DNA of 44,213 nucleotides, filler included, from Jimgerdemannia flammicorona (lineage: Eukaryota): NCBI GenBank assembly GCA_003990765.1. It is 2 parts of 2 records of this genome, joined end to end, with 100 filler letters (N's around TTAATTAATTAA, not from the genome) between each part and the next. Parts side by side here need not be neighbours in the genome. Positions count along the whole stretch, not along the records: positions 22,158 to 44,213 come from RBNJ01001343.1; 1 more part is not named here. One strand, 5' to 3'. Below are positions 22,158 through 43,593 of the stretch, in pieces. The position numbers and the translations under genes are program-made. The notes beneath the pieces were generated by a model that was not told the DNA's origin, did no database searches, and worked only from the letters and a program-made list of their open reading frames with translations. The first letter of the stretch is position 1. Each line of letters starts with the position of its first letter.

Positions 22158-22184
22158 CACCTGGCCTACCCCTATTAGTGCCTC

Positions 22185-23343
22185 CCCATCTTGCCCATCT
22201 TGCCCATCTTGCCCGGTTGCCTGGTTGCCCATGTCATTTTTCCCATTTTGCCCATCTTGCCCATGTCGCCCATCTTGCCATCTTGCCCGTCTTGCCCATC
22301 TTGCCCATGTTACCTGCGTCTTGCCCGTGTCATTTTGCCTGTTTTGCCCGTCTTGCCCATGTTGCCCGACTTGCCGTCTTGCCCGTCTTGCCCGTCATGC
22401 CCGTGTTACCCATCTTGCCCGTCTTGCCTGTCGTTTTGCCCGTTTTGCCCGTCTTGCCCATGTCGCCCGTCTTGTCTTGCCCATGTTGCCCATCTTGCCC
22501 ATTTTGCCAGTCTTGCCCCTGTCGTTTTGCCCGTTTTGCCCATCTTGCCCATGTCGCCTGTCTTGCCGTCTTGCCCGTGTTGCCCATCTTGCCCATTTTG
22601 CCCGTTATGCCCGTCTTGCCCGTTATGCCCATCTTGCTCATTTTGCCCGTTTTGCCCGTCTTGCCCATTTTGCCCGTCTTGCCCATTTTGCCCGTTTTGC
22701 CCATCTTGCCATGTCATTTTGCCCGTTTTGCCCATCTTGTCCATGTCGCCCGTCTTGCCGTCTTGCCCATCTTGCCCGTCTTGCCCGTGTTACCTGTCTT
22801 GCCCATCTTGTCCGTCTTGCCCGTCTCGCCCATCTTGCCCGTCTTGCCCATCTTGTCTGTCGTTTTGCCCGTTTTGCCCATCTTGCCCATGTCGCCCGTC
22901 TTGTCTTGCCCGTATTGCCCATCTTGCCTGCTTTGCTGGTCTTGCCCTGTCGTTTTACCTGTTTTGCCCATCTTGTCCATGTCGCCCGTCTTGCCGTCTT
23001 GCCCGTGTTGCCCATCTTACCCGTTTTGCCGGTCTTGCCCGTGTCATTTTGCCTGTTTTGCCCATCTTGCCCATGTCGCCCATCTTGCCCATGTCGCCCG
23101 TCTTACCATCTTGCCCATGTTACCCATCTTGCCTGTTTTGCCCGTTTTGCCTGTCTTGCCTGTCTTGCCCGTCTTGCCCGTCTTGCCCGTCTTGCCTGTG
23201 TCATTTTGCCGGTTTTGCCCGTCTTGCCCATGTCGCCCATCTTGCCGTCTTGCCCATCTTGCCCATGTTGTCCGTGTTGCCCGTGTTACCCATGTTGCCC
23301 ATGTTGCCCGTCTTGCCTGTGTCGTTTTGCCCATCTTGCCCCG
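22185..23343. repeat. 9-bp tandem satellite (consensus CTTGCCCRT) with irregular higher-order units
   Basis: Directly visible; variants CTTGCCCGT, CTTGCCCAT, TTTGCCCGT; recurrent GTCRTTTTGCC marker. Confidence 0.95.
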
Positions 23344-23505
23344 AAATTCTTGAAATCCTTGTAACTTGCTGAAACTAGAAGCTATGGCTATGCTGAAAAG
23401 ACCAGGCGGGACTCCTATATCTAAGGGATGAGGTACACCTGTTGGCGCTCCTTGGAGCCTATATTTGTGACCTCCAAAACTTGAGAAGCTCACCATCCTG
23501 GTGGC

Positions 23506-23904
23506 TTAGACGCGGAGCCAACTATTTGGTCCGAGTGAAAGGTCATCGTTCGGAGACCTTTCTTTTGTTGCCACTGACAATCGCAGGGTTTTCTGGCGTA
23601 TATACGAGCAATCCTTTCCCAAGCCGCGACATCTCGAACAGGGTTCATTTCTATTGCAAAATTTTCTACTCTTGTCACAATTATTGCAGCACTGTTTTTT
23701 TGGTTTGTTTCTTTTCAAAGGGGAAGAGTGGATATTTTGTGGTGATTCGCTAAGAAATTGAAAGCTATGCATTTGGGGATTGGTGCTTGTGTGCATATGT
23801 GCAGTATTTGGTATGTCGATACTTGTCTTCGACGACGAGCTTTTTATATCAGTTTCATGTGAACTTCGAAGGATTAAATGTGCCCCTGCCATATGATGGG
23901 ACAT
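23506..23904 (-). CDS. Zn(II)2Cys6 binuclear-cluster domain protein (short, possibly truncated)
   Basis: CNNCDKSRKFCNRNEPCSRCRGLGKDC = Cx2Cx6Cx5Cx2Cx6C, preceded by a basic stretch; start codon uncertain. Confidence 0.88.
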   Translation of the reverse strand: MSHHMAGAHLILRSSHETDIKSSSSKTSIDIPNTAHMHTSTNPQMHSFQFLSESPQNIHSSPLKRNKPKKQCCNNCDKSRKFCNRNEPCSRCRGLGKDCSYIRQKTLRLSVATKERSPNDDLSLGPNSWLRV

Positions 23905-24337
23905 GACCCAGATCTAAGGTACTGTATTGTACACAAATATGGTGCGGCGCACGTGCAGCACCAACAAATACTGCTCCGGCGACTCGAGTCTTCACAAAAC
24001 CCCCACATTTTCATATCTTTTAGGCATTCAGATACACTTATACCCTCACAGCTACACATTCTATTGTATTTGTCTCCATTATGAATGCCTATAATGGTGA
24101 CAAAGAGGTAGAGTCTGTGGTGCGTCGACTGCTATGTGTGCTAAATAGTCTTAGTGAGGTCAAACCATATAATAATACACCCTCTCCTAGTGTCAGGAGT
24201 CTTCTGGAAAATATTTTCCAGAAGACTATGATGCGTTTGGTGATGTAGATGCTTGCAACGTAGCTTAAATTATATGTTACATTTATAAGATCTATCATCC
24301 TGAGATGATAGATCTAAAATCAATACAATAAAAGGAT

Positions 24338-24421
24338 TGCTCTGAAGTGGATTCGAACCACTATCCAACTGCAACAGTATATGTGTAAATCAGTTGCACT
24401 ACCAATTTGAGCTAATGGAGC
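24338..24421 (-). tRNA. Intron-containing tRNA-like gene/pseudogene (anticodon reads TAC under canonical numbering; identity uncertain)
   Basis: A box TAGCTCAAATTGG; perfect T arm AGTGG-TTCGAAT-CCACT; acceptor GCTCCAT/TCAGAGC pairs 6/7 if two CpG transitions are reversed; ~10 extra nt in anticodon loop; T4 run downstream. Confidence 0.65.
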
Positions 24422-25435
24422 CAATTTTCTAGCATTGTGTAACTGCATAGTGCTTTCTACTAGAAATCTGTAGATTCATCAGTGGTGATTTCGGATCTAT
24501 GGATCGTTTTCGCTGCATGGATATTTCATTTGCATTCTGCTCAGAGGTGACTGGGACTATGCACACAATATGGGAAATATTCGAGTATCTTACTCCTCTC
24601 TTTGCACCATTTAGGCTTCCGTTTGTTATGAATAATTTTTTGGGGTTTAATGTATTTATGGCAGTTTTTATTAACACCGGGACTCAGTTTGACTTGAACA
24701 AACATGGGAATTGTGATCGGCTCAGATTGTCGTATATCGGTATCTATAGAAACGTCGATCACGAAATTACATCAGGCCCCCACATTTTCTGGCATGGAAA
24801 ATGAGGATTTTGGATCAGTGAGATACATGACCCATGCCTCCGCTGCCACAGATTGTGATTTTGTTTGGTAACAGCTGCGCAAGATTCTTACTGTTGGAGA
24901 TGTGGTTGACAAACAAATCATTCTTTCTCTGTTGTCGAAAGGGTCGGAGAGTGGACTGATCATATATCACTCAAATAATATCCTATGTTAAAATATTACC
25001 TAGTATAATTTCAACCTTCTAAAGCATGAGGTTGGTAATGATGATATAGTTGAATTACATTCTCTTCTCTTTATATTCTCTCAAATCAATGGTTAATTTG
25101 AAATTAGCATATGGTAGATAAAATGCCTAAAACGTATATTTGTATTGTACTAACCAAAACCTACTTTATATTTCTAACTAAATCTTGTTTTTTTTTTGTT
25201 ATTCTAATAAAATCTTGCTTTTCACTAACCAAATGCTGAATTTGTTTTTATGCTACTAAGAGTATTTCATTCGGATTATGGACTAAACGAAATTTGAACT
25301 CCACCCAGGATACTGATGATATCCAACTTGATCCTTTTGGATGGTATTTGACTAATTTCAGATCTATCAGGACCACTGCAATTGCTCTCTAGTTCGGCCT
25401 GCGAGGCAGTGCGATGGTGATCCTTCTTTGAATCG

Positions 25436-25990
25436 GTGAGCAACTGGTTGGGCAGTTTGGCGGTGGGCAACTGGTTGGGCAGCTTGGTGGCAAGCAACTG
25501 GTCAGACGGCTGCTTGGCGGTGGGCAACTGGTCAGACGGCTGCTTGGTGGCGAGCAACTGGTTGGGCAGTTTGGCAGTGAGCAACTGGTTGGGCAGTTTG
25601 GCGGCGAGCAACTGGTTGGGCAGTTTGGCGGTAGGCAACTAGTTGGGTGGCTTGGTGGCAAGCAACTGGTCGGACGGCTGCTTGGCGGCGAGCAACTGGT
25701 CGGACGGCTGCTTGGCGGTGAGCAACTGGTCAGACGGTTTGGCAGCGAGCAACTGGTCAGATGGCTGCTTAGCGGTGAGCAACTGGTCGGGCGGTTTGGC
25801 GGCGAGCAACTGGTTGGGCGGTTTGGCGGCGAGCAACTGGTTGGGCTGCTTGGCGGCAGGCAACTGGTTGGGTGGCTTGGTGGCAAGCAACTGGTCAGGC
25901 AGTTTGGCAGCGAGAAACTGGTTGGGTGGTTTGGCGGTGAGCAACTGGTTGGGCTGCTTGGCAGCAGGCAACTGGTTGGGCTGCTTGGCA
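25436..25990 (-). repeat. Coding-type tandem repeat of mixed 27/30-bp units (AKQPNQLLA / AKQPSDQLLT) within a probable spliced pseudogene
   Basis: Core GCAACTGGT repeated about 19 times; ORFs 25639-26079 and 25276-25638 share a frame across one TAG. Confidence 0.85.
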
Positions 25991-27134
25991 GGATGCCTCT
26001 CAGTGTCAGAGTCAGATTTGAATTCTTCACTGTTATTGATTTCGAATTGGATCGGTCTTAGCATACTCTTGCAATTCAAGCATGAGCAATGGAATCAATT
26101 TGGATATAACTCGAAGTTAAGCCAAATGAGGTACTTTTGGAAATTCCCTAGAAATGTGATAACCAGTATTTAGTTTATTTCTAAAAGGAAGTAAAACATA
26201 TGCAAATATAGTCATACCAAACAAAATATGCTGTCTCGATGGATGTCCATAAATTGTCAGATACGATTGACCAATATATGGCCCGGTTTTATGCTGCCGC
26301 TAGTACCAGGAGTACCCCCTTGGGAGTTCTAGTAGAATGCGACCTAAACATAGCATACACAATACATCAAAGCTATAGAATAATATAACAATTCATTCAT
26401 AGGTATTTTGATATTTACGTGTATTATTCTCCTTATGATATATGGCGAGCATGTTTCCCAGACATACCATTCGATCAGGGTCGTGGTGCTCTACCATATC
26501 GGCGCATCTCGGATGCATATATGTGCCATCTGAGTTGGCAGGCGGATCAATCGGGGTTGAATGGGTGGATTGTTTATGGTGAGGTTTGATGAGCATTTTG
26601 TTTGATAAAGAGAAATTGTAATTTAACCATATATTTATATCATTTATTTCATATATGTCAATCATTTCGCATAGGTTTCCACCAATGGTGAGTCATTGAT
26701 CACTTATCAGACGTTTTTGATCATGTTAATTACATTGGTGATATACGTATGTAGTTTTAATATATGACTCAGTATTATCATGAATCAGCCATATTAATCT
26801 TCATTTTCTAGTTTGAGTAAGAGTCTTAAAAGCTTTTAATATATGCATAAACCTGCTTCATGCAAGAATTACATTCTTCGTTCTCAACTGTAATATAACC
26901 TGTAGACATACATATGCAACCCTTAATCAGTATCCTTACAATTAATCAGTGATACTATGGTGTATGCTTTTGATGTAAGTTTGTGAACATACATATTATA
27001 CAATATATATTGCATATATTAATTTCACTAGGAAAGTAAAATGATTGAGTATTAACATCTAAGTGATAAATAAATTTAAATCATGTGAGTCTATCATACT
27101 ATAACCTATGTGTTTGAGTCCCATCCAACATATG

Positions 27135-27297
27135 GGTACCTTTTGTTCTTTGGCATTTTCACTTTCTTGGCCTCGGCCATCTCCCCCATGAGCACCGGTT
27201 CAGGAAGCTGTGGTCTGTTGTCCAGAACGACGAAGCACGATCATATGGGGCTGAGGTCACTGAAGAATGCCTCCAGCTCAGCGCTCGTCGCATCATA
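27135..27297 (-). pseudogene. Isolated RRM fragment resembling RRM1 of Nop4/RBM28
   Basis: YDATSAELEAFFSDLSPI*SCFVVLD...KNKRYPYV; S and * revert to G and R by single CpG transitions; GC-richer than flanks; family assignment from memory, not a search. Confidence 0.65.
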
Positions 27298-28757
27298 GAT
27301 TTATGGCAATACTGAGATGATTGATGTTAATGAGTTAGCCCAACCCCAAATTGATCACCCCATGTGTATCTAATGATCTGTCGAAAGCGAATTACCCCCC
27401 CTCTGTTGGTGATGGTATAAAATACTGCATGGAGATGGCTCCCACTGCTGTATCTCCCAGTGAGTCCGCATGTGCAGGCTTGTTGACTGTAGTATTTTCT
27501 CACTCGAGACTATGACTGAACATCAATTGTAATTCTGCCATTCAATATACTTCCTCTTACTCAATACTACTGATTGAACTCACACTTTATCGCTTTGGTT
27601 ATCTCCAGATATACGGAAACAGGCAATATTCTGGCTAGTACTAACCCCATAGTATGACTATGGTCGAGTGTCCTGTTGTCGTCGATGGTGAATACGTACT
27701 CCTTCAGCGTGAACTGCATGGTGTCTACATCCATGGCCTGTCAAATGACAGATATGGAGATGTGGTACAGACGAGTCTGCAGAATGCCTGTATGATCAGC
27801 TCTGGATTCGGTCTCGCCACAAGGCACTGCGCAACGTCTGTAAGTATTGGTGAAGATTTCGGCACCCAAGTTGGAGTTATAATGGAAGTAAGGTTGGTGG
27901 TTGTCATTGGGTCTGTACGTTTAGGTGGCGAATATGGGGGGGGGGTATGCTCGAAGAATGGCTATTCGAGAAGAGGTTTGGGCGCTGTTGTTTCATAGGA
28001 GACAGATGAGCGTTCATTCACTTTATATTTTACCGAAATCTACTATGTTTGAGATGTGTTTTGAAACCTCTGCATATCCCTTAGTTCCTTCATTACCAGA
28101 CGAGCAAGAGCTCTCTTTTATTTTAGTGACCTGTGTAAGATATATATATAGTTGTGATGTCAGCTCATAGAAAGTATATTTCATCTGCATACAAAGTAAT
28201 AATATCAATTACCATTTACTATAAGTGCTATTAATATGACTCCTAATGTGAGGATATGTAATCACATGACAGCATACCTTTATTAGTGTAATATAATCAG
28301 TCTAATTACAGTCCCTGACACTGAACTGTATCAACATTTGTTTATTATGGAGGACATTCTCACCAGGTTCTGTACAGTCATATGTCCATCCCTCCCTCTC
28401 AATCTTTGCGTGCCCTTCACATCTGCACTCTCCCAATTTGCTGCTGTCATTGCCCTCTGTGATTCCTTGACAGACATCGCTCTTGTCCACAAATACTTGA
28501 ATGATGGTGTCATTGTACTTGTTCACTCCCATGAGATTAAAACTCCCACCCTACAAGGAGTGATCATTAACAGTAACGAGACTACTACCAAGATACCAGA
28601 TGGGCCAAAAATAATCTCTAAAAAGTGAGCGCACAAAACCAAGCTAAAAGGTTAGTCTATCCTATATTTTATTAATGTAAACAAATATAATGCAATTGAT
28701 CACTTATGTATTTTCTTTTGAGGGAGTCTAGGTGTCAATAAACAGGGTGTAAAACAT

Positions 28758-29213
28758 GTGCTCGACAAGAACACATTCATCAAGGCTGTCCAAGATGCCC
28801 AACATCTTGTCAAGGACTCCGAATTTGTTACAACAACCCTTCCCATTACTGAAAACTGTACTCTTGTTGAGATAGAACGTTATCGTCACCAATCTAATAT
28901 AGGCACGACACATGGCCTAATTGTTCAATACCTGCTTGGCAGACATGTGGACCGAATTACCAGAGAGCTACCAGAGGGAACGAGAGCGACTCGAGATGCG
29001 GCGTTCAGCAGACAATATCGGACAGAAGCAGGTCTTGATTATTCTGTGAATATTAGGAGTCAGGTACACCGATTGCGACTTGTTTACAGTATTTTAAAAA
29101 ATCTTACTGTAAGGGAGGTCTTGGCAATTCGTGGAGTTGTAGTATCACATTTATTCAATATTAGCCATGATGAGGCCAGACAGCTCTGTGTTGTGATTTC
29201 TAGCAAAATATAA
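28758..29213 (+). CDS. Hypothetical protein, probably last exon of a spliced gene
   Basis: 151-codon open frame with protein-like composition; no recognised domain. Confidence 0.45.
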   Translation: MLDKNTFIKAVQDAQHLVKDSEFVTTTLPITENCTLVEIERYRHQSNIGTTHGLIVQYLLGRHVDRITRELPEGTRATRDAAFSRQYRTEAGLDYSVNIRSQVHRLRLVYSILKNLTVREVLAIRGVVVSHLFNISHDEARQLCVVISSKI

Positions 29214-29446
29214 ATGTATATCTATTCCACATGTAAATTCGGGGAAAGTGCAGTTGTGTGCCCAGTGGGACTGGTGTGCACCCATGATTGTCTACGCACA
29301 ATCCAGGATCATTATTATCAAACAAAATAATCTGATAGTTTCTTTGTGGGGTTTAAAAATAGTATTCACTGTTGTACGTCACTCATTTATTCAATTGATG
29401 GCAAGTAGTTCTGAGTTATCTAGAAACTAAGATACTAACTATTTGT

Positions 29447-29800
29447 TCAGATATCATATGGGCTTGTTGTGAATAAATCTGTATTATCTAGCTCCATGAT
29501 GAGCATCCATTCAGAATTGACCCCAAGACTCTCCATCGTAATGCTTTCATTATTCATGTCAAAGTTGACAAGAGATGTGCCATCCATTCTCTTCAAGATG
29601 AAATTGTCTCCTTTGGGATTGTGGTCTGTCTCGAGGGTGTGGAGCAGGCAGCCGATGTCATTGGAGGTTTCGATTTTGAGTAGATGTGTTGTTCCGTCGA
29701 GCCATTGAATGTTGATTGTCACAAATTTTCTGCTCGATGTATCGGCTGCTTTCTGAACTTCTGGACAGAATTTTTTAAAATAATTTTGTTCAGATGCCAT
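29447..29800 (-). CDS. Small ubiquitin-like/UBX-like beta-grasp protein, copy A (intact)
   Basis: VTINIQWLDGTTHLLKIETSNDIGCLL..FILKR..ITMESLGV..MLIME resembles the UBX/UBL pattern; duplicated at 41969-42325. Confidence 0.65.
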   Translation of the reverse strand: MASEQNYFKKFCPEVQKAADTSSRKFVTINIQWLDGTTHLLKIETSNDIGCLLHTLETDHNPKGDNFILKRMDGTSLVNFDMNNESITMESLGVNSEWMLIMELDNTDLFTTSPYDI

Positions 29801-29893
29801 TGTTTAATGAAGGAGTGAGTGGTAAAAAGCGTTTATTTATATTGCATCCTATTGACAGTAACAGTCACATATATGTTTATAACATAAGTATCA

Positions 29894-29948
29894 GGGAAAG
29901 TGCATTCATGTGGATGGGATAATCCTGTCCACGTGAATGCACTTTCCC
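29894..29948. repeat. Long palindrome family, full copy 1
   Basis: GGGAAAGTGCATTCATGTGGATGGGAT-A-ATCCTGTCCACGTGAATGCACTTTCCC; mismatches explicable as CpG transitions. Confidence 0.95.
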
Positions 29949-30199
29949 CAATGACTGCAGTTGTGTGCCCAGTGCGCCCATTACATGGGACTTGGACGAT
30001 CAAGCATATACTTTATAAAACATCGACTATACAAATTCTCTGAGTCGTATTTTGCGATGATTGTATAATGGATTCATCTCGAACGATGTAAGTAATTGTC
30101 TTGAACATTAATTTACAATATTCTATCACTAACACCCATTGTTATTATTTATTCCGAAGTCCATACTTTTGTTTCTATAAAAAAATGGAGTAAATTAAA

Positions 30200-33100
30200 T
30201 TACGATATATATAAAATGCCAAATATAATAATATCATTTACACTAACCTTTTCCACTCCGCCTCCACTGACTAAGGAATTCATTCGTTTGGTTACAGGAA
30301 AGGGTTTTATAGTTTTAAGTATCGCAATTACCTCTTCGCTGAAAAAAAACCTAGCATTTGTACTATCAATCATAATTGTTAGCTCCTGCGTCTCCTCATT
30401 ATATCCACCGACAATGGTGGTCTTGGATAGCTGGACAATTAGTATACTGATGGACGATATGACATTAGGTGGGTATACATCTACAAGATATTGCAAGATC
30501 TGCTCCCTCTCCACAGTGTATGATGCAGGCTGCTTTTTGTTGGTGAAAAACATTTTGGGTGATGTAGTCTTGATAGCTGGTTCAGTATCGATTGTCAGAG
30601 AAAACTTGGCCTGTACAACTACTGGAATGCGTGTTATATTGTCATCACTGCTGCCATCCTCTGGTGGATGTACACAAATAATGAATACGACATCAGGACC
30701 TGTCTTTTTGGGTGGCATGAGAAATGTCTCACGTGGGTCCTCGAGATACAACAGCAGATTGTCCCTTCCACAGAGATTCTCAGGTTTGGTATCACTGTGG
30801 TGTCGAAGAATGGTAATCTGGCAGGAGAATACCCATGCAAGCCACTCGTATTTGCTAATGAATTGCTCGAACAGAGGATGGACATCCAGGCGTGGCTTCG
30901 AGTTCCATGTGTTGTCAAACAGATCGAAGAGTGGCTCGAGTAGATACCGTTCAAAGAGATCGCCGAGATGTTGAGGCGCCCAGCGGGCCTGCCCCATCTT
31001 CTTGAGCAATGTCTGGCTGATGGTCAAGCTGTTACGTGGGATGTCATCACCATCAAGGCCATCACGAATGAGACAGAAATATGCCATTGCTGCCAATGAC
31101 TCTGATAACCCGGCCACCACTACCACTGTACCAGCCGCACCATCATCGATGCTGACGAGCTGTGCAAACCCATGCTCCACAGCAAGCACCTCTTCTTTGG
31201 GGATGACAATGCTATCTGAAAATGCATGGTAGTTGAGCACCGCCTCCTCGATGACCGGCCATATTTTCGACTGCTCGCATATCAGCGAGAGACAGCCCTC
31301 CAGCTGAGTGACCAGGAGGTCCACCGTGCTGTTACGCCAGTATCGAATGGTCGCATTTGTGACTGTATCTGCTTCTATAGGCCCTTGGATGGCATTTTCC
31401 AGGAATCAGACAGTAAACCAACAATGGCCACGGAGATAGTCGAAAACAGACTCGATCTGATTGTCGGTGAGTGGCCTGAGAAACTGCTCAACAAATGCCT
31501 GCATCTCTGCAATGTTATCGAACAGTGTGTGACACTGATAAAATATGTCTTGTCAATCGATGCCTTTCCAATTGTGCTCCCTATCGCATCCATAAGATGG
31601 TCGATGTGAAGTCCTGTCCCCGCGAGTATGGTACATATGACACTATGTCCACCGACGATTCCCATCACGGTGTGCAGAAGTATTGTGAAATATGAGCATT
31701 TCTTCGTAGTCGATGTGGTAGAGGGATATATGTCCTGCTGCTTGGCGATGGCAATCTGCGCCTCATCTATTGCAACAGGTATCTTCGTGGCTTTGGTGTG
31801 CTCCAGGATCGTGTCAACAGTCTTGATAATATAGGTTTGAATATGGTCAGTATCTGAGCCTGCGAATATTTTCCAGAGATCAATCCAGAAGTCAGGAGGG
31901 TCGATGCCGACACTGCCTGGCAGCAACTGCATCAGAAGCCATATCTTTGGTGTGAATCTGGATGACCGCATTTGTGTAAGCTTCTTGAGGACATAGAGAC
32001 GTGCCACCAACACCACACGGGCCTTGACGAGTGCTTTGGCATTGTTACTTTCCAGTTGGTCACCCCATAGCCATGACGAAACGGAGGCTTTGTCCAAGTC
32101 TCTGGACCCCAGATTTCCATCAACACCTCCGGCATTGAGTGTGAGATATATGCCGAATGTCCAGCAGAACAGTTCATAAATGCTATGCGTTTTCCCAGCT
32201 CTGTTGATGTTGAATAAATATAAATTAGAAAGAGATATATGGTATTTATTGAATGCCAGTAAAATGAATACTTACCCAGATGTTCCAATCAGCATGAGCC
32301 ACACCTGCTTCAACATCCGGTCATGCAACTCACCAAGCTCATCTCGACTGATAAACCCCGAGTCATCTTTGCCTTCCAGTAGCGAATGCAATATCAACGA
32401 AGGCGTTCTTCCACCATTTACTGTAGGTATCCTGGCATTGTTGATATACATGGCACATGGATGATTTTCTGTCTGATACAGCTGTAATGGGAAGCCATTG
32501 GCGATTATCGATTCAAACGTCAGTCACCACTCATGCCATTGGGCATCCGCTCTGGCTCGGATCATTTCAAATAGGGCATCAATCTTGTCATCTACAGCTT
32601 CAGTCAACGCTGCTGGCAATGGTGTGTCTATTGCAGTATAACATAACACATAGAAATTGGGGGTCAATCTCAATGGACTCTATCATTTTTAAATATTGTT
32701 CACTTATAATATGTTAAGTATTATTTATACTAATATACAGCTATTATAATATACATTTCACCGTGTGTGTTGTTTCATCCGAGTATAAGGACATTTCAAA
32801 TCGCGTTGTATTGGTAGACATAACCTCCCTCCATACCCCCGCACAGCATTCGTAATCAAAGTCACCCTCCAGAGACTATCACCATGCCACCTATTGTTGA
32901 CTATATTTGTAGCCTTTTTTTGTGAGAGTACCAGCATACCTTCAATAGTGCGATTCAGAGCTCCCAATATTGACGGTCTGTGTGAGTTGTCTGTGGGTAT
33001 AATAATGATATTGTCAGTATATAATATATAATACATTTTAATAGTCAACAATTTCAATATCTAATCATTACCTACAAGTACTTGTGCAGTCAATCTGACA

Positions 33101-33462
33101 ATGGATTCAGTGTATTCAATAATGACATGAATGTACTCATCATTGAGAAGATCGGGAAAGCACCTCTGTACTTTGAACAATACTGGTAGTTCTTCACCAC
33201 CTAATACCTCAATGATGGCGGAGTTGGGGTTGGCTTGTAATGCAGTGAGCCTATCGTTCAGCGTATAGAGGGGTATGTTGACCTTCCAGAGAGTGAATTC
33301 ATTGATGGCGACATGATCAAAGTGTGGGACTAGCTTTGCCTTGATATGTTCTCATAGATTGTCAATACTGGCATTTTGGTGAATTGTAATAGAAAACATA
33401 TGTCTGGAAGGAGGGGTCTCGCCGTAGACAAGACAGTTGAGCATGATGTTATCGGTTGATAT
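30200..33462 (-). pseudogene. Crinkler (CRN)-type gene: ubiquitin-like header, P-loop NTPase, PD-(D/E)xK REase; spliced, disrupted
   Basis: LNCLVYGE..F.I.I....IDNL*EHIK...FTLWKVNIP...IHVIIE header; Walker A GTSG/AGKT split by an intron (~32207-32275); Walker B PVAIDEAQ; GPDVVF...VVQAKFS. Confidence 0.88.
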
Positions 33463-33829
33463 TCTGTATATAAATGGTAGACCTTTATTAGTATTGGTAT
33501 AAAGTTCTGGTAGAAATGTGTTTGGTTTATACAACTTACTGTAGTTGTGATTGTCGCGTTATCAAACCAGTTGTGGATTATGTATTAACTAAAGTGGCTT
33601 GGTATTAAAGTCAACAAATTACTTGGAGACATCATGCATTCCTTATAACAGTCTCACTTATAATTAGATGAGTCCAAGCCACAACTGAACCACCGACACA
33701 AGATGGACATGTCCTGTTGTGGAAACGTAGTGGCTGAGACAACCGTATCCAACAACTGTTTTTGTATAAAAATAAATTATATAAAGGGCATTACCACATA
33801 TAAATAATTGTATCCTCTGTCTGTGTGCC

Positions 33830-35166
33830 ATGACTCCAATTTCTGCAGAAGTCTTCCTAAACATATACATCCTCCTCAATAGAAGATGTGATATATTTGC
33901 AATCTCTCTTGTCTGTCGTATATTCAGACAATATACCAACCTGCCTCTGGCACAGGCACACTTGCTTGTTACACTATTCGGCAACACCATGTCTCTGGCC
34001 TGTGGTATTGCACTGCTTCCACATCTCATCGATGATAAGGTGTGTGAACTGCTTGAACACCACGGTGCAATAGTCATATCCCGCATACTGGAGACAGCCT
34101 ATTCCACCTCAGTTATTGATGATGAGACCAAGCAAGCAATTATCGAATGGTTTGCCAGATGCCAGATCGTGCTGCCCATGGACCGTATCTGGCTCAGAAT
34201 TTGTACAGAAATGGATGCATAGACAGATGCTCACTCAGCAGTAGAGATACCGTATGACAGTCAAGCTGTAAAAGACTTCATCCAATACATGGATGCTGGA
34301 GACTTTGTCCCAATCCCTTTCTTCAAGTACCATATGATTGAGGGAGAGCCTGCACAGTACTGGCAGATACTTAACGAACTGAAATCAAATGGAAGTTAGG
34401 AATCATGGATGGATCTTCTCTGTCTTGCAGCCATCTTGGCCCCTGAGGCATTGGAGAGAGCAGTCAGTTGTGAATACAGAGTGCCAGACTGGCCTGGACA
34501 GGATGTGTTTGAATGTCTCTGTGGTGCCGCAATACTGTATGGTTAGAGACAGGAGCCATGATGACAATGCTTATCGAGTATGGGCTCATGCATTTGGATG
34601 ACGAATACATTACCCAACGTTCGCTTACACCAGAATGCAAAATCGTCTTTCACTATATAACAGCGGAAAGCTGTATACCAGCCATCAAGGCAGCCACTGC
34701 AATTGGAATTGAGCAGTATGTTGCTACATTTATGACACAAGATGAGCTTGATGATGAAACAATTGAATACATGGAATATCTCAAACCGCAAGTACTATCG
34801 TGCACATCTCACATAAGGAATGCAATTGAACAATATGTGGTGCCAAACCACAGCAACAGCATGCCTGGGAAAATCAGATATACTCGCATACTGAACCAAC
34901 TTGCATTGTGGATACTGGAGCAATGGCCTCGTCCTGGCCATATCACCAGACTGGTCTTCGACAATCTTGTATTAAGCATGACCAGAGGTCTTGAGATGTC
35001 AGATGTTGTATCAAAATACCTTAAAGGAGGGTACATATTCTCTGACAGACATCGAGAGTGGATTACCAACAGTCCAAAAAATTTGGCGCTCGTGACAAGC
35101 TGGAGGAGCATGAAGACACAGCCACCTATATGGCTGTGGGCCCAGCAGGGTAGCCTCTGTAAATGA
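33830..35166 (+). pseudogene. N-terminal F-box-like protein, apparently intronless, with stops and a frameshift
   Basis: ISAEVFLNIYILLNRRCDIFAISLVCRIFRQ fits the F-box consensus; frame continues past TAG at 34220 and shifts near 34540 into ORF 34513-35166. Confidence 0.65.
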
Positions 35167-35533
35167 GTAAATAAATGATTTGCCCCATGTGACGTGTGTT
35201 CCAATTAGAGAGATATACTATAGTCGACAATTGAGTTTATTAGATGGCATCCCCATTACTATTTAGTAAGAAAGAGTCAAATAATATCTGAGCGACGTTT
35301 GCTGACAAATGAGTTTATTGTAATTTTACATGGTCGCATGTTCTCGAATATGTGACATCTCACCACCCTCCAATACTCAGATAGGACACAACAGATGTTG
35401 TTGACATATAGCATCTGCAAGAAGGAGCAACTCACGATATCACAGTAAATAAGTATGATATGTGGCTTGGTATCATGTGCCCCAACAGAAGACATATAAA
35501 ACTAAATACATACTTTGGTACATACACCTAACC

Positions 35534-36551
35534 ATGTCTACTAAATGTCTGCAAAATGCTCAGGAGTGCTTCTGCACCCTGGATGAATATCTCGAAGAAT
35601 TGATTACACGATGTCTAGTATCTAATATGCCATTTCCAAACACGGATACCACCTTCTATGCCTGGCTCAAGGAACTAATTATATCAGTTCCTATACAGCA
35701 GGAGCTGGTAAGCTATAGACTTTATTATTATTATTATTATTTTGCATCTTCTTTGTCATCCTTTATTCAATTTCTGTCCGCACTACTCACAGGAGCCTGA
35801 AATATCTACCCCCATACAATATACCCATAAACATCCTTGTGAAGAGGAGGGGGATAGTGGTGAAGGTCCATCTGCTCCAAAACATGCTCGCTTTGAAAAG
35901 GTATTCCTCTTTTTCCTAGATCCTAATTATATCAGTCATTTAGTAATATTCTGGTATATTTTATAGGATTTGTCATCGCCCCCTCCCCGCCACCGCCACT
36001 GTGGTATCTTGAAGAATATACAACAAGTATTTCTACAAACTGATAGAAGCCGGTCTCCAACCCCACCAATCTATGAGCCTACAGAGGATGAGCTAGCCCA
36101 GACGGAGTCCTTCAGGACTACTGTTATGGAGGTGGTAGCCAATCCCACACCAGTCCAGCTGTCTACTCTGAGGGAAAAATACTCACCGGACACACTTAGC
36201 GGACTGTTTGGCTCTGTTCCAGCTGCCCTGAAAACAGCTGGTGTATCATTCCCTTCAAGTGATCTTAAGGGTACTTTGGATCAACTGATTGCAGTAAAAA
36301 AGTTTCAATGCTCACTCAGGGGACCAGAAAGAGCTCGCTATGAACAGTAGATCAGGTAATGCTTTGGTTTGAAAAATTTAATCTTTCTTACAAATGTGAT
36401 GCTTCCACCAAATTTTGATGCTCAGGTAGTAAAACATGAGTATGGGGCACTATACTCTTGTGTATGCATTGCATATGAGCTGGCCCGCACACTACCTGCA
36501 ATGCCATTTTATGTAGTAGTTGACAAGAAACTTGTTATAATAGATACATAA
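35534..36551 (+). pseudogene. Three-exon hypothetical gene with premature stops
   Basis: ATG 35534; GTAAGC..CAG intron (~35707-35791) and GTATTC..TAG intron (~35901-35967) join ORF pieces in frame; stops near 36348 and 36357. Confidence 0.55.
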
Positions 36552-36732
36552 CAAATTGTATAATTTCAATAGATAGATTCCTATAGTATTATATTGTCTG
36601 TCAGTTCAGTACAATTGATATAACAATTTTCGATAACATACATCTTATTCATCAATATTCCTTAGACTGCTGAGACACTTCAAAAGAGGCTGTTTTAATA
36701 GTTTTAGAAACACCCGATGATGATGGAAAGAA

Positions 36733-37807
36733 CTAGGAAGAACACGAAGTTGTGAAGGGTCTCATCAACGTGTCCTTGTTTAAGAGACCTCTCCATGCAA
36801 TGTCTCCTGCTTCAAAATCACCAACAAGACTAATATCATCACAGTCTGAGCAAGTACCCCCTAAAATGTAATTTATTGTATAGCTGCACATTTCCAATAA
36901 ACAAGTACAGTCTATCAAACTATCTGTGAATGGGTGGATGGCTTGCTCATGCCAATCATAGGCCACGACACTCTTCACACTTCGGTCTGCATTCTGGCTC
37001 ATCTTCGGTGACTCTTGGCAGCCAGAAGGCATCAATGAGAGCGAAGTCTGTACATGCCTTTGCTAGACTCCATCGGTGGTCTACCTCTGGATGAAGGATT
37101 CCACGTATGAACTCGGAAAACACAGGAGTGTAGTTATGCTGGAATGCGCTATCATCATTTAACACCTCATTAATGATTGCCTGTTTACTACTGATGATCG
37201 ACACTTGGTTCATAAGAACTTGGTACAGACTGATGCCGAAGGACTGCACGTCGTCTTTTTCCAGGTTGAATCACTGCTGTGTATTGTATTCTTTACCAGC
37301 ATGAATTGTTGTACAGTCAAAGTCAAAAAGCTTCACCTCTGGCATGTTGTCTGGGTGGAATGTGTAAAATATACTCTGTGGCTCGAGGTTGTGGTGGTAG
37401 ATGCCACATCCATGAAGATAATATAGAATGTCGAGGACTTGGGAGAATATGAATTTGATATTCATTTGTACGTTGAGGTCATCCACCATAATCTGACATT
37501 CGCCCTCCTTTGGCATGGACATGAATTGACTGTATAAAGAGCCAATCACGGGCTCCATGAGTAGGTATATTGCATTCTGATCTTTGTGGTGATGAATAAC
37601 CCTTCTGATGTTGGGATGTTGGGCTGCTGGAAGGTTGTTGCCAATGCACCAGTTGTCGACAACCTTTAGAAAATGCACAGTTCCATCACTTGCTCTGGTC
37701 TTGTATATAGCGCTGTTCATCCCCTTGAGGATGGGTTCACCAATGATATTGACACCAAACATGAGGGCACTAGCATTCGGCTGCAGAGGTTGTTCACGAC
37801 ACAGCAT
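36733..37807 (-). pseudogene. Compact intronless Ser/Thr protein kinase-like gene with Cys-rich tail
   Basis: HFLKV, HPNIRR, IYLLMEP, YLHGCGIYHHNLEPQSI, VKLFDFD, DVQSFG, ILHPEVDHRWS; in-frame TGA at 37271; probable frameshift near 36960. Confidence 0.85.
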
Positions 37808-38214
37808 TTGGAATGAATATCGATTGCGCAGTGTGTTTCAATAGCAGTATGAGTTGGCTATTTATTCACTTGTAAACCAAACAATAAATGGCTATATCTA
37901 GTAGGTTGACATACACTGTAATATATTTAAATGCAACTGTATTTCTCCTGGGTAGTTAAGTTGCAGTTGAAACAAAGAAAAGCTGTGCTACCTTTCCAAC
38001 ATTGTATCATATATGGAGATTACTCATTTATAGTATATGAGCATCAGCAACAACGAAATAGGACTATTGCTGATGTTGTATTCTCCTGGATAACAAATGA
38101 TAGCTACTAGATTCAGATTGTAACTATATTTATTCAAATACATTTACTAATTATATTGTTATAATATATATACTTGAATATTTGTTGTATTAAATGTGAT
38201 AGGGTATTCATTGT

Positions 38215-38847
38215 TCATGGATCATCTATAGTTAGTTCTCCATCATCATACCATTCATCCTCAAAGGGTTTATCATCATCAGACCAATCATCGTAAAAGG
38301 TTGGTTCTTCATAGCCATACCAATAATCCTCAAAGATTTCGCCATCGTCATACCAATCATCCTCAAAGGTTTCGTCTTCATCAGAACAATCATTGTAAAA
38401 GGTTAGTTCTCTATCAGTATACCAACTGTCTAGGGTTGGTTCTCCATCATTATCAACAATTGGTGGTGGGGATTGAGGACGAACACAATTGGGATATCTC
38501 CAATTATCGTCGTCATCGTCATCAGTATCATCATCGTCGTCGTCATCGTTGTCATCGTCATCATTGTTGTTGTTGTTATTGCTATGATTGGGGACATCCC
38601 CATTGTGTTCGTCATTGTCGGGGTTATTGTTCGTATCAGCAGTGCACTGGATTTGGTCGAGATGTATGTCACGGGCTTGTATAATGTTGATATAGATGAT
38701 TACACGGAGCTGGGAGCTGGCACTTGGTTTTGATGGAAAACCAAAGGATTATGATCAGAGAGCTGGTTATTCTGTAGACAGTTTGCATATTTGCTGTTCT
38801 GAGTGTTGTAAGTCCAGAATGAACCTTTTTAACCCTTTGGTCATCAT
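38215..38847 (-). pseudogene. Highly acidic low-complexity protein with repeated Trp/Tyr-Asp motifs
   Basis: One frame with three stops (TAA, TGA, TAA) then a poly-N/D tract and repeats such as FEDDWYDDGE, FEDEWYDDGE, TFYDDWSDD. Confidence 0.5.
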
Positions 38848-39915
38848 TGGTTTGAGTACTTGTTTGGCCAAGATAGGGGGTTCGACTTAAATGGTACTGA
38901 CTTTAGCATCTGAGAAGATTTCTCAGTATTGTACAATTATAGCAACTTCATGTGAATAATATAGATGGAACCTACGACAACAGTGAGATTTATACAGCAT
39001 ATCTACTATATTTGCCCTCTGCCTCAAATATAGATGTGTGAGACAGAGGTACTGTTGGGACTTTTATACACAGTGATAAGTATATACAATAGACTCCGAC
39101 ATATGAGTTCAGAACAGAGTCTCTTGGACAGTGTGAGACCTAATTTATTTATAAATGGTATAACCTAGTTTGGGTTGTGTCAAGCGCAGTTTAAGCCTCT
39201 TGTCAAAACAGTCATGCAGAGTTCTGACATCATCCTTTCTTTCTACAAAACAAACTGTTCAACTAACATGTCACTGCATCCTACACTGACAACAACTACT
39301 ATTTCATTTGGTATGAAATAACCCCTCTTTAATCTCTTTAATCACTACAACTACCTCTCTCATTACTAATCACTCTCATGTTTATACCTCTTTCTTAGAT
39401 TCTACAAGAATTCACCCAGCATTCTTCCAACAGCAATGTCAACCTGTTGCTTTCACCGCTACAACTACAATAGCTAGTTTAGAATATAATGTTGCCAAAT
39501 TGAGCCCCATCTTTTTTGGGTACCCGACTACACCAAGCAAGAGCAGTACTCACTCAAACAATAAATATAGGCTGTGATGTCGAGTTGCATGTTGATAGTA
39601 TCCATTTTGCAACCACACTGACCACTACTACCACAGCACTTTATACTTGTATTGTATGCATATAATACGTTTATTCGATAAATAAAACATAGTTATTGGC
39701 TTAAAATTTTGTCCTTCCCAATTGCTGTCACCTTGGCAACAAACATATCTGCTGAGGCGACATCCAATTATACTGAGGTGTTGACTTTGGGTGTCAATAA
39801 TAGAAATATGCTGAGTTTCTTGATAGATTACACATGACGGATAAATGCCAGCCAGTGTAACCCTGGGCAAGTAATGTTGATTCCAAATTAGTGATATAAT
39901 TGTTCCAGGCCCACT

Positions 39916-39961
39916 ATGTCATTGTCGGGAAAAGTGAATGCACTTTCCCCGACAATGACAT
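39916..39961. repeat. Palindrome family, centre-deleted copy with different outer arms
   Basis: ATGTCATTGTCGGGAAAAGTG-AATG-CACTTTCCCCGACAATGACAT. Confidence 0.9.
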
Positions 39962-40913
39962 CACCAGTAGTTGTGATGGTCACCACCCAACGAATATTTA
40001 CAACAATTCGAATTTATTAGTAATTGTGCTAGAGCTACCAAACTTTACATCGTAAAGTGAATATTGACTGCTTATTTGGGTTGAATAATGAAAAAGGGGT
40101 TTCTCGTTCTTTGCTTGTATACATAGAAGTGTCGATGGAAGAGATCTTGTGATATGTGACTCAGATTCGGAAATAGGCTTCCACGTTGATGTTGTTAGTG
40201 ATATGTTACACATTATGCAAGTCAAGTATTTTGGACGACCGTCACAGTAATGCAATAGATGATCAGCTTATAAGTCGCTTGTTACAATATGACAACTCTT
40301 ATAAGAAAAGCCTTATATTCAACAGCATTTATGCCACTAAACACATTGACAAGAGGCTCTCACCTGGAGTTGTGTGCCAATGTATATGAAGCAGATGAGG
40401 TGTCAAGGTTCTCTATATATCCATTGGATAAAGAACTTGAATGAAGTATATGCATTCATATCTGATGTGTCAGACCAAGTGAGCTCCAAAATCTGTGCAA
40501 TGCCGACTAGTTATGATACTGATTTATTGCATGGGGTAATAATCTCTGACAACACTGGTAGAAACACCACCAGTGTTGTCTGTAAACTGCGCTTTTGCAC
40601 GGCAATAAATGGCTGATGCATTTTTGGTTATGTTCTTTGTTTGTCCCCCTTATATATGCCTTTTCATATGTCATCTGTTCATTTTGACTCTGGTTTTGGG
40701 TTCGCTCCCTTGATACCTGCTACCTTCTTCCTCCTCCATAAGCTGGGTAATTGAATCTCTCACTAAGTTTGTGTTGTCGGCTTTTATCTATAAAGATTAG
40801 AATTAGTAGAGTAAACGATTTGTTTTACATAGTTATATAAATCATTGCCTGTGAGGATAATGATATATTATGGAACTTGTATTGTTGTCTGTAAACATTT
40901 GCTTATTAGTAAA

Positions 40914-40965
40914 GCAACTGATTTTACACATATGCTGATAGTGGTTCGAATTCACTTCAGGGCAA
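40914..40965 (+). pseudogene. Degenerate second copy of the tRNA-like sequence (inverted relative to 24338-24421)
   Basis: GCAACTGATTTTACACATATGC-TGATAGTGGTTCGAATTCACTTCAGGGCAA matches the anticodon/intron and T-arm parts of the first copy. Confidence 0.75.
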
Positions 40966-41067
40966 ATATATTTTATATTGATATAATAGATAGAGAATAC
41001 AGATACGTTTATCGATAATGTTTTAGAATATACATCTCCTAAAACATCTCGACAACAGAGCATTGTA

Positions 41068-41532
41068 TTATTTACATGGTTTGAGCTCACCGAGCTCATT
41101 TAGCATACAAAACAGTTGACGCACTATTGGCTCTGTTTTTCTATCATTTATATCAGCTGATGCAGCAGCAACGCCATCAGTATTTAGTGCTTCGATATCC
41201 GCACCATTGCGAAGTAGAGCAATGAGTATAATAGCATCTTGCTCATCTCTGGTAGTGGTGGCAGTAATATTTGGAGTGTGTATGTGTTCCTGTAGCATTT
41301 CAGGTAACAACATCCACTTTTTGAGCATTACTACAGTATTATAGAAAATATGACCAACAGCTGTGTGCAATGGCGTATTGCCAAACACATCTGGGTTACT
41401 CAGCAAGGTTGCATCAATCAATGCTTGGATGTTTTCGATGTCACTACCTCTAATTGCATAGTGTAGTGTATAGTGCTCTTTAACTGTAGCGCGTTGGGCA
41501 TCAATTGCAGAACGTCAGACACCGCGATCCAT
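41068..41532 (-). pseudogene. Small ankyrin-repeat protein
   Basis: TLHYAIRG, DVFGNTPLHTAV, LLRNGADIEALNTDG; ATG 41532 with in-frame TGA at codon 6. Confidence 0.85.
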
Positions 41533-41700
41533 ATTTGCAAAGCCTAGAGTTGATGTGGAGTTGGTTAAAAGCTAAACAGGATGTATGCTAATTGAAATAT
41601 TATCTATACAGGATGGTCTTGGTATTCACGTAATATTATTTAAGAGTGTGACGTCTCACAAACACGTGAAGGTTTGGTAATCACAGACAATACGTCAGCG

Positions 41701-41761
41701 TTGGGGAAAGTGCATTCACGTGGATGGGATTATCCTATCCACGTGAATGCACTTTCCCCAA
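41701..41761. repeat. Long palindrome family, full copy 2
   Basis: TTGGGGAAAGTGCATTCACGTGGATGGGAT-T-ATCCTATCCACGTGAATGCACTTTCCCCAA. Confidence 0.95.
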
Positions 41762-41968
41762 TGACTGCAGTTGTGTGTCCAGTGGGACTAGTGTGTGCCC
41801 ATGATTGTCTACGCACAATCCAGAATCATTATTATTAAATAAAATAATCTGATAGTTTCTACACATTGTTTGTGGGGTTTAAAAATAGTATTCACTGTTG
41901 TACATCACTCATTTATTCAATTGATGGCAATTCTGAGTTATCTAGAAACTAAGATACTAACTATTTGT

Positions 41969-42325
41969 TCAGATATTATATGGGCTTGTTGTGAATAAAT
42001 CTGTATTATCTAGCTCTATGACGAGCATCTATTCGGAATTGACCCCAAGACTCTCCATCGTAATGCTTTCATTATTCGTGTCAAAGTCGATAAGAGATGT
42101 GCCATCCATTCTCTTCAAGATGAAATTGTCTCCTTTGGGATTGTGGTCTATCTCGAGGGTGTGGAGCAGGCAGCCGATGTCATCGGAGGTTTCGATTTTG
42201 AGTAGATGTGTTGTTCCATCGAGCCATTGAATGTTGATTGTCACAAATTTTCCACTCAGTATAATGTTATTCTGACCTTTATTAAGGTTTTGACAGTATC
42301 TTTCAAAATAATCTTTTTCAGCCAT
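41969..42325 (-). pseudogene. Ubiquitin-like/UBX-like protein, copy B (TGG to TAG stop)
   Basis: Near-identical to 29447-29800 from KFVTINIQ onward; stop at 42029. Confidence 0.75.
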
Positions 42326-42409
42326 TGTTTAATGAAGGGATGTGAGGTTTGTGGTGGTATTTATTTATAATACACCTATTGACAGTGACAGTTATGTACA
42401 TGTTTGTGA

Positions 42410-42487
42410 CGTGAGTATTGGGGAAAGTGCATTCACATGGATGAGATTATCCCATTCACGTGAATGCACTTTCCTCGACGCTCATGT
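42410..42487. repeat. Long palindrome family, full copy 3 with extended decayed arms
   Basis: CGTGAGTATTGGGGAAAGTGCATTCACATGGATGAGAT-T-ATCCCATTCACGTGAATGCACTTTCCTCGACGCTCATG. Confidence 0.92.
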
Positions 42488-42809
42488 AATTGGGAGGAAG
42501 TCCCCATATTCCCACGCTGTTGTGAATCATCAAACACACCGTCTAGCCATGAACTCCAACCATGACCTGGTCGTGATTGAATTACCACACCTTGTCATTG
42601 CAATCACGACACCACACACACTATTGCCACATGTCCCAATTCTGTAATTACCGGAAATTGGTATTGTCCAGGAACTGGAAGGAGTTTAGATGAGGGTTTT
42701 GTATACCCAATAATATATTTATTTATCAAATGTGAAATCGGCCTTTTATTCCATCAAAGGAGGAAATATAAATAAGCAGTGCAGCCATGACAGAAATCTC
42801 TTTCAAATC

Positions 42810-43590
42810 TTATGGATATATAGTATCATAATAGGTGCTGACTACAACAGATTGTTTGGGCTTGCTACACCAAATTATATTGCTATACTGTTTGGCATTA
42901 TACCATTCCAAAATGATGTCATACTTCCATTTCTCCTCATCAAACATACACCACACTGCACTGGGGCAAAACTCCTCAGCAACCAGAGTCAGCATCTCAT
43001 CACCCTCGTCCTCGACATCGAAAACGGGGTGAATCTCCACATTAAGCCCCAGCTCAGTCACAATGGCATACAGCGTGCGATCACACCCCTGGAGTATTTT
43101 GGGAAATGTCATCGTAAATTCCTCTACTTTGCCATGGTCTGGTGTGAGTGGATATGCGTGTTGTAAGCCAAAGGCAAGCACACCACCATTGGGCATGAAA
43201 CCCACACAGGTGATAGCTGTGTTGAGCATCTTGTACAGTAACAGATGTCCGAGATTGAGGCTCGATGTTGTTGGGATGTCATGGTGTAACATAAGGTTGT
43301 ACGTGAGCATGATACCAAAGCCAGATGTGAGTGGATGGATGGTGTATGGACATTTCTTGCGGAATGCTGTCCATTGGATCTTTTCAGCATCCTTTGACCA
43401 GTCAAATAAGTTGGTAGTGTTCTTGTATCGCACAATGAGTTAGCCACCACAGCAGGTTGTTGGCGGACAGACAATAAGCAAAAGGTCACCATTGTTGTGT
43501 AGAGTCTCGTAATATGTCCTTCCATGGGGTGTGTGGATGGTGAGTTTCAGTAGCTGTGGAATGATAGTTGCATTGCCTGGGGCCATATGT
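42810..43590 (-). pseudogene. Fungal-type 2OG-Fe(II) oxygenase-fold gene lacking catalytic residues, 5'-truncated
   Basis: LLKLTIH..LLIVCPPTTCCGG*LIVRY..FDWS..IQWTAF..IHPLTSGFGIMLTYNL..FMPNGGVLAFGLQHAYP..LQGCDRTLY follows the family pattern GGxLxVRH..FDWS..IQWAAFYSDCEHEVxPVTSGHRxTLTYNL (recalled, not searched). Confidence 0.75.
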
Positions 43591-43593
43591 TAG

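What the first reader, a model, noticed from the sequence alone, without database searches (positions are those of the whole stretch)
29241..29970. A one-gene module (palindrome, ubiquitin-like gene, palindrome) duplicated 12.5 kb away with ends at the palindromes
Seen: 29241-~29950 and 41703-~42475 are direct-repeat copies. Similarity starts at GGGGAAAGTGCA of the left palindrome and ends at the right palindrome, and the outside neighbours differ (hypothetical gene and CRN versus ankyrin and oxygenase). The sequence after palindrome 29894 (AATGACTGCAGTTGTGTGCCCAGTG) repeats the module's own left start. Inference: the palindrome-bounded unit, not a random segment, is what moves or recombines.
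Basis: partly seen in the sequence, partly recalled or inferred. Interest (0 to 1): 0.8.

Follow-up and report, generated by a model that had tools for sequence, protein, structure and literature searches.

The report
Palindromes that shuffle giant-element genes
The duplicated ubiquitin-like gene is one of many pieces of a giant, now decayed, fungal mobile element whose genes are separated by copies of one 65-base palindrome, and comparing copies of the element shows that pieces flip, drop out and change neighbours at these palindromes.

Summary
The duplication is real (87% over ~710 bp, no similarity outside), and the 117-aa protein folds like ubiquitin. But copy A's left 'palindrome' is a 12-bp remnant, and the module is no special one-gene cassette. 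The palindrome (32+1+32 bp) occurs 53 times on 28 contigs, all parts of a multi-copy giant element with a Pol-delta-like polymerase and a Starship-captain-like recombinase. Between copies, three internal inversions and one clean 1.45-kb loss end at palindromes (chance about 5% per end). The central A/T base differs between copies at 9 of 16 matching positions, while the rest of the core shows 3 transversions in 1216 bases: the sites were repeatedly flipped or exchanged. A sister element in this genome has its own, different palindrome (75 copies). Best reading: baculovirus-hr-like palindromes that double as orientation-free recombination hubs (0.53); a recombinase-driven natural 'SCRaMbLE' is not excluded (0.27). 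No enzyme is tied to the sites. The scan noted this element kind before on other DNA (e1-7415832); the shuffling evidence is added here.

The parts
22158..44213 (.). Contig C1343: a piece of one decayed copy of a giant multi-copy element
   Evidence: Nearly all of it aligns at 77-94% to other palindrome-bearing contigs; CpG observed/expected 0.58
28155..28190 (+). Degenerate palindrome arm remnant, left boundary of the neighbouring 'X' interval
   Evidence: Read from sequence; same position carries a clearer arm in C7158 and C9738
28738..29226 (+). Hypothetical gene 'X'; lies beside a different interval across an arm remnant in C13066
   Evidence: homologue without Pfam hit
29241..29252 (+). 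12-bp remnant of a palindrome arm: left scar of module A
   Evidence: same scar in C7158 and C9738
29253..29888 (.). Module A interior
29447..29800 (-). 117-aa ubiquitin-fold protein, start codon about 89 bp from the palindrome
   Evidence: relatives at 28-42% identity in named Endogonales records
29889..29953 (.). Full 65-bp palindrome (32-bp arms, 1-bp centre)
29954..29974 (+). Repeat of the module's own left start: head-to-tail (circle or tandem) junction
   Evidence: longer (about 40 bp) in C7158, C9738, C89
30200..33474 (-). Crinkler-type gene in pieces, right neighbour of module A
   Evidence: Crinkler N-terminal domain in homologues
39916..39961 (.). Palindrome with its centre deleted
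   Evidence: z = -9.6
39962..41698 (.). Ankyrin-gene interval, inverted between its two palindromes in contig C6027
   Evidence: ankyrin hit in the C10417 homologue
41699..41763 (.). Full palindrome, left boundary of module B
41764..42415 (.). Module B interior; ORF 42029-42325 (-) ends at a premature stop
42416..42480 (.). Full palindrome, right boundary of module B
42810..43525 (-).

Best explanation
The palindromes are cis-acting sites of a giant, self-replicating fungal element, comparable to the homologous regions (hrs) of baculoviruses. SHOWN: they are confined to the element, intergenic, were identical at all positions before C-to-T decay, and are the break points of inversions, a clean deletion and neighbour swaps between copies; their centre base is randomised. 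INFERRED: because each site is a perfect palindrome, any two sites are at once direct and inverted repeats, so recombination between them gives inversion, excision or duplication at will; a circle or tandem made between the two palindromes around the ubiquitin-like gene left the head-to-tail junction at 29889-29974 and placed the gene in a second context. INFERRED, least certain: the trigger is hairpin/cruciform formation and cleavage during the element's own replication, repaired by homologous recombination or template switching with the element's exonuclease and structure-specific nucleases; this also explains centre-deleted palindromes, arm scars such as 29241 and co-copied flanks. Shuffling would then be a consequence of an origin/enhancer role.
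For: 53 full sites on 28 contigs, 354 kb of 231 Mb. 263 of 273 core differences are C>T/G>A; transversions 3/1216 in cores vs 67/2898 in flanks, p = 2e-7. Three nested inversions (1.6 kb, 1.66 kb, 190 bp) have all 6 ends at sites; 4.8% of bases lie within 100 bp of a site. One 1.45-kb interval is absent in C89 with one whole palindrome left and flanks starting at the core edge. Centre base A and T both occur at 9 of 16 orthologous positions, 16 of 33 pairs discordant. Several rearranged junctions stand in 2-3 diverged copies, so they arose while the element still spread. Element contigs encode a family B polymerase (E 6e-76), ERCC4 nuclease (5e-19), SAE2/CtIP-like (4e-5), RNase III and a weak YqaJ hit (0.005, under cut-off). 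Imprecise products are common: 4 centre-deleted sites, 10 arm remnants, short inserted copies of the opposite flank. 44 of 106 flanks begin with a TGACGT-like motif against 0.2% background. A sister element has a different palindrome, often in clusters 84-134 bp apart, matching the description of hrs as alike within a genome and different between species (PMC3496565, passages).
Against: No origin, enhancer or cleavage activity was tested. The nucleases are not tied to the sites by any result; the yeast work on Mre11/Sae2 and Mus81 at palindromes (PMC8053094, abstract only) used far longer repeats (recalled). Rad52 hits lie on two contigs outside the palindrome set. Arm-to-arm correction was not detected (outer arms p = 0.24; core p = 0.84 after matching for decay). 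Only 4 of 51 insertion/deletion rows have an end within 50 bp of a site, so most length variation has other causes. Precise junctions fit a site-specific recombinase equally well. The assembly is fragmented and no complete copy is in hand.
Confidence: 0.53

Rival explanations
1. Natural SCRaMbLE: the element's tyrosine recombinase recognises the palindrome as a symmetric site (like loxPsym) and inverts, excises and reinserts the intervals.
For: A DUF3435-like recombinase gene lies at the element's end in 7 contigs. Sharp core edges, strong conservation, both inversions and deletions, precise junctions. The sister element's site has 16-19 bp arms round an asymmetric 10-bp spacer, a loxP-like layout, with 7 of 76 spacers hybrids of the two orientations, and its contig C1628 carries a phage-integrase-type recombinase. 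Symmetric loxPsym sites give deletions and inversions alike (PMC4691749, passages).
Against: The element's known terminus shows no likeness to the palindrome arm (score 16-18 vs shuffled 16). 32-bp arms with a 1-bp centre are unlike 11-14 bp arms with a 6-8 bp spacer (recalled). Many junctions are scarred. The reciprocal hybrid spacer was never seen in the sister family (0 of 76). The recombinase hit is under the Pfam cut-off (E 0.0036, one exon).
Confidence: 0.27
2. Passive repeats: a MITE-like palindrome spread through the element, and ordinary host repair recombined or broke the copies after integration.
For: Sharp ends and once-identical copies fit a small insertion; 65-85 bp of identity suffices for ectopic recombination (established knowledge); two of the three inversions are seen in a single copy each (C6027, C89).
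Against: No excess of target-site duplications for k = 3-8 (p 0.11-0.61, 52 sites); all 98 pattern matches lie on element contigs; tenfold lower transversion rate than flanks; rearranged junctions shared by several copies.
Confidence: 0.11
3. Integron-like array: one-gene cassettes, each with its own site, excised as circles and inserted at a receptor site.
For: The head-to-tail junction after 29889 is what a cassette circle would leave; the module has two contexts.
Against: 0 of 52 sites have attC-type ends; genes face both ways (30 five-prime, 21 three-prime neighbours) and intervals span 190 bp-10 kb, including the polymerase core; no empty site.
Confidence: 0.06
4. Assembly artefact: short-read assembly switched paths at near-identical palindromes.
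For: 35,354 contigs; one contig ends in a mirrored palindrome (C18432) and one inside a palindrome (C19968); no reads could be laid.
Against: Longest exact match between the two sites bounding an inversion is 37 bp in C6027 and 11 bp in C856, and C89's site 34052 shares at most 19 bp with any other site; one C89 breakpoint has lost its palindrome altogether; centre bases still differ in 9 of 17 pairs whose sites have no perfect inverted run over 25 bp; rearranged junctions recur in diverged contigs.
Confidence: 0.03

Closest known systems
Baculovirus homologous regions, especially the single 58-76 bp palindromes of tortricid granuloviruses (PMC3496565, passages)
   Same: Dispersed intergenic palindromes of similar size, alike within one genome and different in a sister genome, in a large DNA with its own family B polymerase; cruciform potential; clusters in the sister element; indels gather round hrs (PMC11097085, passages).
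   Different: Here the palindrome was perfect with a 1-bp centre; the host is a fungus and the element is integrated, with a captain-like recombinase; inversions of whole intervals are mapped to the sites; origin activity untested; no baculovirus structural genes seen.
Starship giant transposons (PMC11162782, passages)
   Same: Giant cargo-carrying element with a DUF3435-like tyrosine recombinase as its first gene and a sharp terminus in a shared target.
   Different: That paper found no Starship recombinases outside Dikarya; its three mentions of palindromes concern target sites, not internal arrays; this element has its own polymerase and nucleases.
SCRaMbLE / loxPsym (synthetic; PMC4691749, passages)
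   Same: Many symmetric sites between genes; outcomes are inversions, deletions and duplications at the sites.
   Different: Natural; 65-bp site; cognate enzyme unknown; many junctions imprecise.
Integron cassette arrays and shufflons (recalled)
   Same: Repeated sites between accessory genes and a tyrosine recombinase nearby.
   Different: No attC ends, no common gene orientation, no fusion of gene halves, sites identical rather than diverse.

Membership tests
Baculovirus hr | Dispersed intergenic palindromic repeats, alike within a genome | tested here: met
   53 sites, differences almost only C>T/G>A
Baculovirus hr | Sequence differs between related genomes | tested here: met
   Sister element has an unrelated palindrome
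Baculovirus hr | Acts as replication origin or enhancer | not testable with these tools
   Only indirect: TGACGT-like motif at 44 of 106 flanks, start codons 56-90 bp away at several sites
Baculovirus hr | Lies in a baculovirus-type genome | tested here: not met
   No baculovirus structural family among the Pfam hits of 105, 80 and 24 reading frames; fungal host
Starship | DUF3435 tyrosine recombinase as first gene | tested here: inconclusive
   E 0.0036, under cut-off, one exon, at the shared terminus; 7 contigs
Starship | Both termini with short direct repeats at a specific target | tested here: inconclusive
   One terminus found, three of five flanks homologous; the other terminus not located
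Starship | Recombinase falls within the Starship clades | not tested
   No tree built; PMC11162782 reports none outside Dikarya
Integron | attC sites with RYYYAAC...GTTRRRY ends | tested here: not met
   0 of 52 (motif recalled)
Integron | One-gene cassettes in one orientation | tested here: not met
   Intervals 190 bp-10 kb, both orientations
MITE | Target-site duplication | tested here: not met
   No excess over shuffled flank pairs
MITE | Copies scattered over the host genome | tested here: not met
   All 98 matches on 28 element contigs
Symmetric recombinase site (loxPsym-like) | Both inversions and deletions end at the site | tested here: met
Symmetric recombinase site (loxPsym-like) | A cognate recombinase acts on the site | not testable with these tools
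   Terminus unlike the site
Endogenous Nucleocytoviricota | Major capsid protein and A32 ATPase | tested here: inconclusive
   No match to PF04451 or PF04665 in the genome; the capsid control rang nowhere, so absence is not shown
Ubiquitin-like fold | Beta-grasp fold | tested here: met
   Model of pLDDT 61; 148 PDB matches at E <= 0.001, led by SUMO, ubiquitin, UBX
Ubiquitin-like modifier (conjugated) | C-terminal di-glycine | tested here: not met
   No GG at or near the C-terminus in the window protein or its copies

The most novel reading that the evidence does not exclude
A natural eukaryotic SCRaMbLE: a giant fungal element carries some 25 symmetric sites between its genes and its own tyrosine recombinase inverts, excises and duplicates the intervals in any orientation, each element family having its own site.
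Probability: 0.27. Interest if true: 0.92.

Novelty: new variant of a known kind. Interest (0 to 1): 0.7.

Why it matters
It shows, from copies in one genome, how a giant eukaryotic mobile element reorders and duplicates its cargo: at its own symmetric sites, with a readable marker (the centre base) for how often each site was turned over. If the sites are hr-like origins, fungal giant elements replicate like large DNA viruses, and palindromes give a way to find and delimit them. If the recombinase acts on them, this is a natural orientation-free shuffling system and a possible new recombinase-site pair. Either way it extends cargo-carrying recombinase elements to a fungus whose ORF relatives lie outside Dikarya.

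Tried and rejected
Palindrome patterns in viral and metagenome contigs: no match; sister YqaJ protein in viral contigs: none. Sequencing runs: none was listed, so no read check. Word-index search with the C6027 copy of the ORF: nothing; PDB by sequence: nothing; single-sequence fold pLDDT 38, uninformative; atlas gave only a lead (Rad60-SLD, 0.88). Two of four HMMER hits (P0121, P0123) are repeat artefacts and were dropped. Rfam on 28000-43000: none; ARAGORN: none. Arm-to-arm homogenisation: an apparent excess in cores (40 vs 27.7) vanished when decay load was matched. Tree of 8 module copies does not separate A from B. First flank classification missed arms and was replaced; several class splits there (12/13, 11/47, 34/46, 17/45) are the same position, so the raw 20 of 39 partner switches overcounts slightly. 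Literature: searches returned no paper; none describing palindrome-bounded shuffling in a fungal giant element; subscription journals are largely missing from this library, and supplements were not read.

Full report
Observation. The two stretches align at 86.9% over 717 columns and the 500 bp outside them do not align better than shuffles. Three full palindromes (29889-29953, 41699-41763, 42416-42480) and one with its centre deleted (39916-39961) fold far better than 200 shuffles (z -6.9 to -11.9); the left end of copy A does not (z +0.3), being a 12-bp arm remnant. The 117-aa ORF has no Pfam hit but two real relatives by HMMER and a ubiquitin-type fold; it lacks a terminal di-glycine. Copy B's ORF ends early.

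The palindrome family. The host is a fungus (Zn2Cys6 gene; 231 Mb, 35,354 contigs). A tight pattern gave 98 matches on 28 contigs and none for the reversed control. I fetched those 28 contigs and C13066 whole (354 kb) and found 53 full sites and about 16 partial ones. The core is 32 + 1 + 32 bp with sharp edges; 263 of 273 differences are C>T or G>A, mostly at CpG, so the sites were identical before decay; the centre is A in 27 and T in 26. Between orthologous sites cores show 3 transversions in 1216 bases, flanks 67 in 2898. There is no excess of target-site duplications and no attC end. 44 of 106 flanks start with a TGACGT-like motif (background 0.2%); genes face the sites from either end; intervals run from 190 bp to 10 kb.

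The element. The contigs are pieces of several copies, mostly 75-95% alike, of one large element. C89 carries both window-like sequence and sequence shared with C94; C94 carries four palindromes, an intron-free family B polymerase stretch (best hits fungal Pol delta, about 43%), a weak YqaJ hit and a DUF3435-like recombinase exon next to a sharp terminus shared by other contigs. Another palindrome contig encodes ERCC4 and RNase III, another a SAE2-like protein; five contigs, including the ERCC4 one, are tied to the rest only by the palindrome and short flanks. No NCLDV capsid or A32 match was found, with weak controls.

Shuffling at the palindromes. With sites masked, pairwise alignment gave 27 strand-switch rows and 51 indel rows. 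Twenty strand-switch rows reduce to three nested inversions, each with both ends at sites: the 1.6-kb ankyrin interval beside module B (C6027 against the window and C10417), a 1.66-kb interval (C89 against C5154, C1102, C10114, C13066) and a 190-bp interval (C19968, C856 against C13591, C94, C352). With 4.8% of bases within 100 bp of a site, six such ends have a chance near 1e-8. Of the other seven rows, one has an end at a site, two are C89 rearrangements away from sites and four appear to be matches between inserted retroelements. Only 4 of 51 indel rows end within 50 bp of a site; most look like transposon insertions and small indels. A 1.45-kb interval is missing in C89 with one whole palindrome left. 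At these junctions the flanks start at the core edge in both arrangements. Most telling, the centre base is both A and T at 9 of 16 orthologous positions (16 of 33 pairs; 9 of 17 pairs without a perfect inverted run over 25 bp), that is, at random, although it is never C or G. The sites were turned over or exchanged many times while their flanks hardly changed.

The module. Its 3' end meets three different neighbours and its 5' end three. Context A stands in the window, C7158 and C9738, context B in the window, C6027 and C10417; C89 has a B-like promoter end in an A-like context. The repeat of the left start after the right palindrome is shared by four contigs, so it is old; it is the junction expected from a circle or tandem made between the two flanking palindromes (inference). 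No empty site was seen.

Mechanism. Symmetry makes any two sites both direct and inverted repeats, which accounts for inversions, deletions and duplications without assuming an enzyme (inference). I favour an hr-like role with cruciform-triggered repair (0.53) because the element carries replication and structure-specific nuclease genes, scarred products are common, the terminus is unlike the site and the sister element repeats the layout with another palindrome in hr-like clusters. A recombinase acting on the sites (0.27) is kept alive by precise junctions and the loxP-like sister site with hybrid spacers. Passive repeats (0.11), an integron-like array (0.06) and misassembly (0.03) fit worse. 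No result links any protein to the sites, and no reads were available.

Comparison with what is known. Granulovirus palindromes of 58-76 bp act as origins (PMC3496565, passages); Starship recombinases were reported only in Dikarya and their palindromes are target sites (PMC11162782, passages); loxPsym gives deletions and inversions alike (PMC4691749, passages); Mre11/Sae2 and Mus81 attack palindromes in yeast (PMC8053094, abstract); PMC11097085 and PMC4746121 were seen as passages and do not map inversions to hrs. Integron, shufflon, loxP and MITE features are recalled. Ten searches found no description of palindrome-bounded shuffling in a fungal giant element, in a library lacking most subscription journals. 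Verdict: works like hrs, is not a member of any tested family; a new variant of a known kind, interest 0.7.

Noticed in passing
G000 C88, C164, C1628, C2821, C3301 (L128-L132, L141-L144, L148-L154): A sister element, about 133 kb, gene-dense, three contigs without CpG loss (o/e 1.07-1.19), with 75 copies of a different palindrome (16-19 bp arms, asymmetric 10-bp spacer), often in clusters; YqaJ, ERCC4, RNase III, ribonucleotide reductase, many ankyrin/TPR/F-box genes, a phage-integrase-type recombinase at C1628:17.4-18.9 kb. No second copy seen among the contigs fetched; deserves its own study.
   Followed up: partly
Sister palindrome spacers, e.g. C88:22479, C164:37066, C2821:8062: 7 of 76 spacers read as hybrids of the two orientations, none as the reciprocal hybrid.
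   Followed up: partly
G000 C127 and C138 (L133-L140): A third related element with RPA, Mus81-type nuclease, a histone and YqaJ, and other hairpins including one of about 250 bp at C127:32711.
   Followed up: no
C94:30300 region, C3107:12170, C10083:3330, C720, C2582: Sharp element terminus upstream of the recombinase; in three contigs the outside flank is the same host repeat, suggesting a preferred target.
   Followed up: partly
C10127:921-1412: A 490-bp insertion with a palindrome in its middle, joining flanks that elsewhere bound a 2.2-kb interval.
   Followed up: partly
window 24198-24406 and 40905-41124: Second, inverted similarity (74-80%) with small hairpins at 24198 and 24288, the latter also in C89.
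   Followed up: no
window 22177-23340, 25407-26031, 43566-43907: Tandem arrays of 9, 27 and 33 bp inside the element.
   Followed up: no
P0122: The same ubiquitin-fold domain is fused in front of a VIT domain in a named Endogonales protein; the sister element has a VIT-VWA gene.
   Followed up: no
window 22058-22157: The window joins two separate contigs through an N spacer; the first half is unrelated to the finding.
   Followed up: yes
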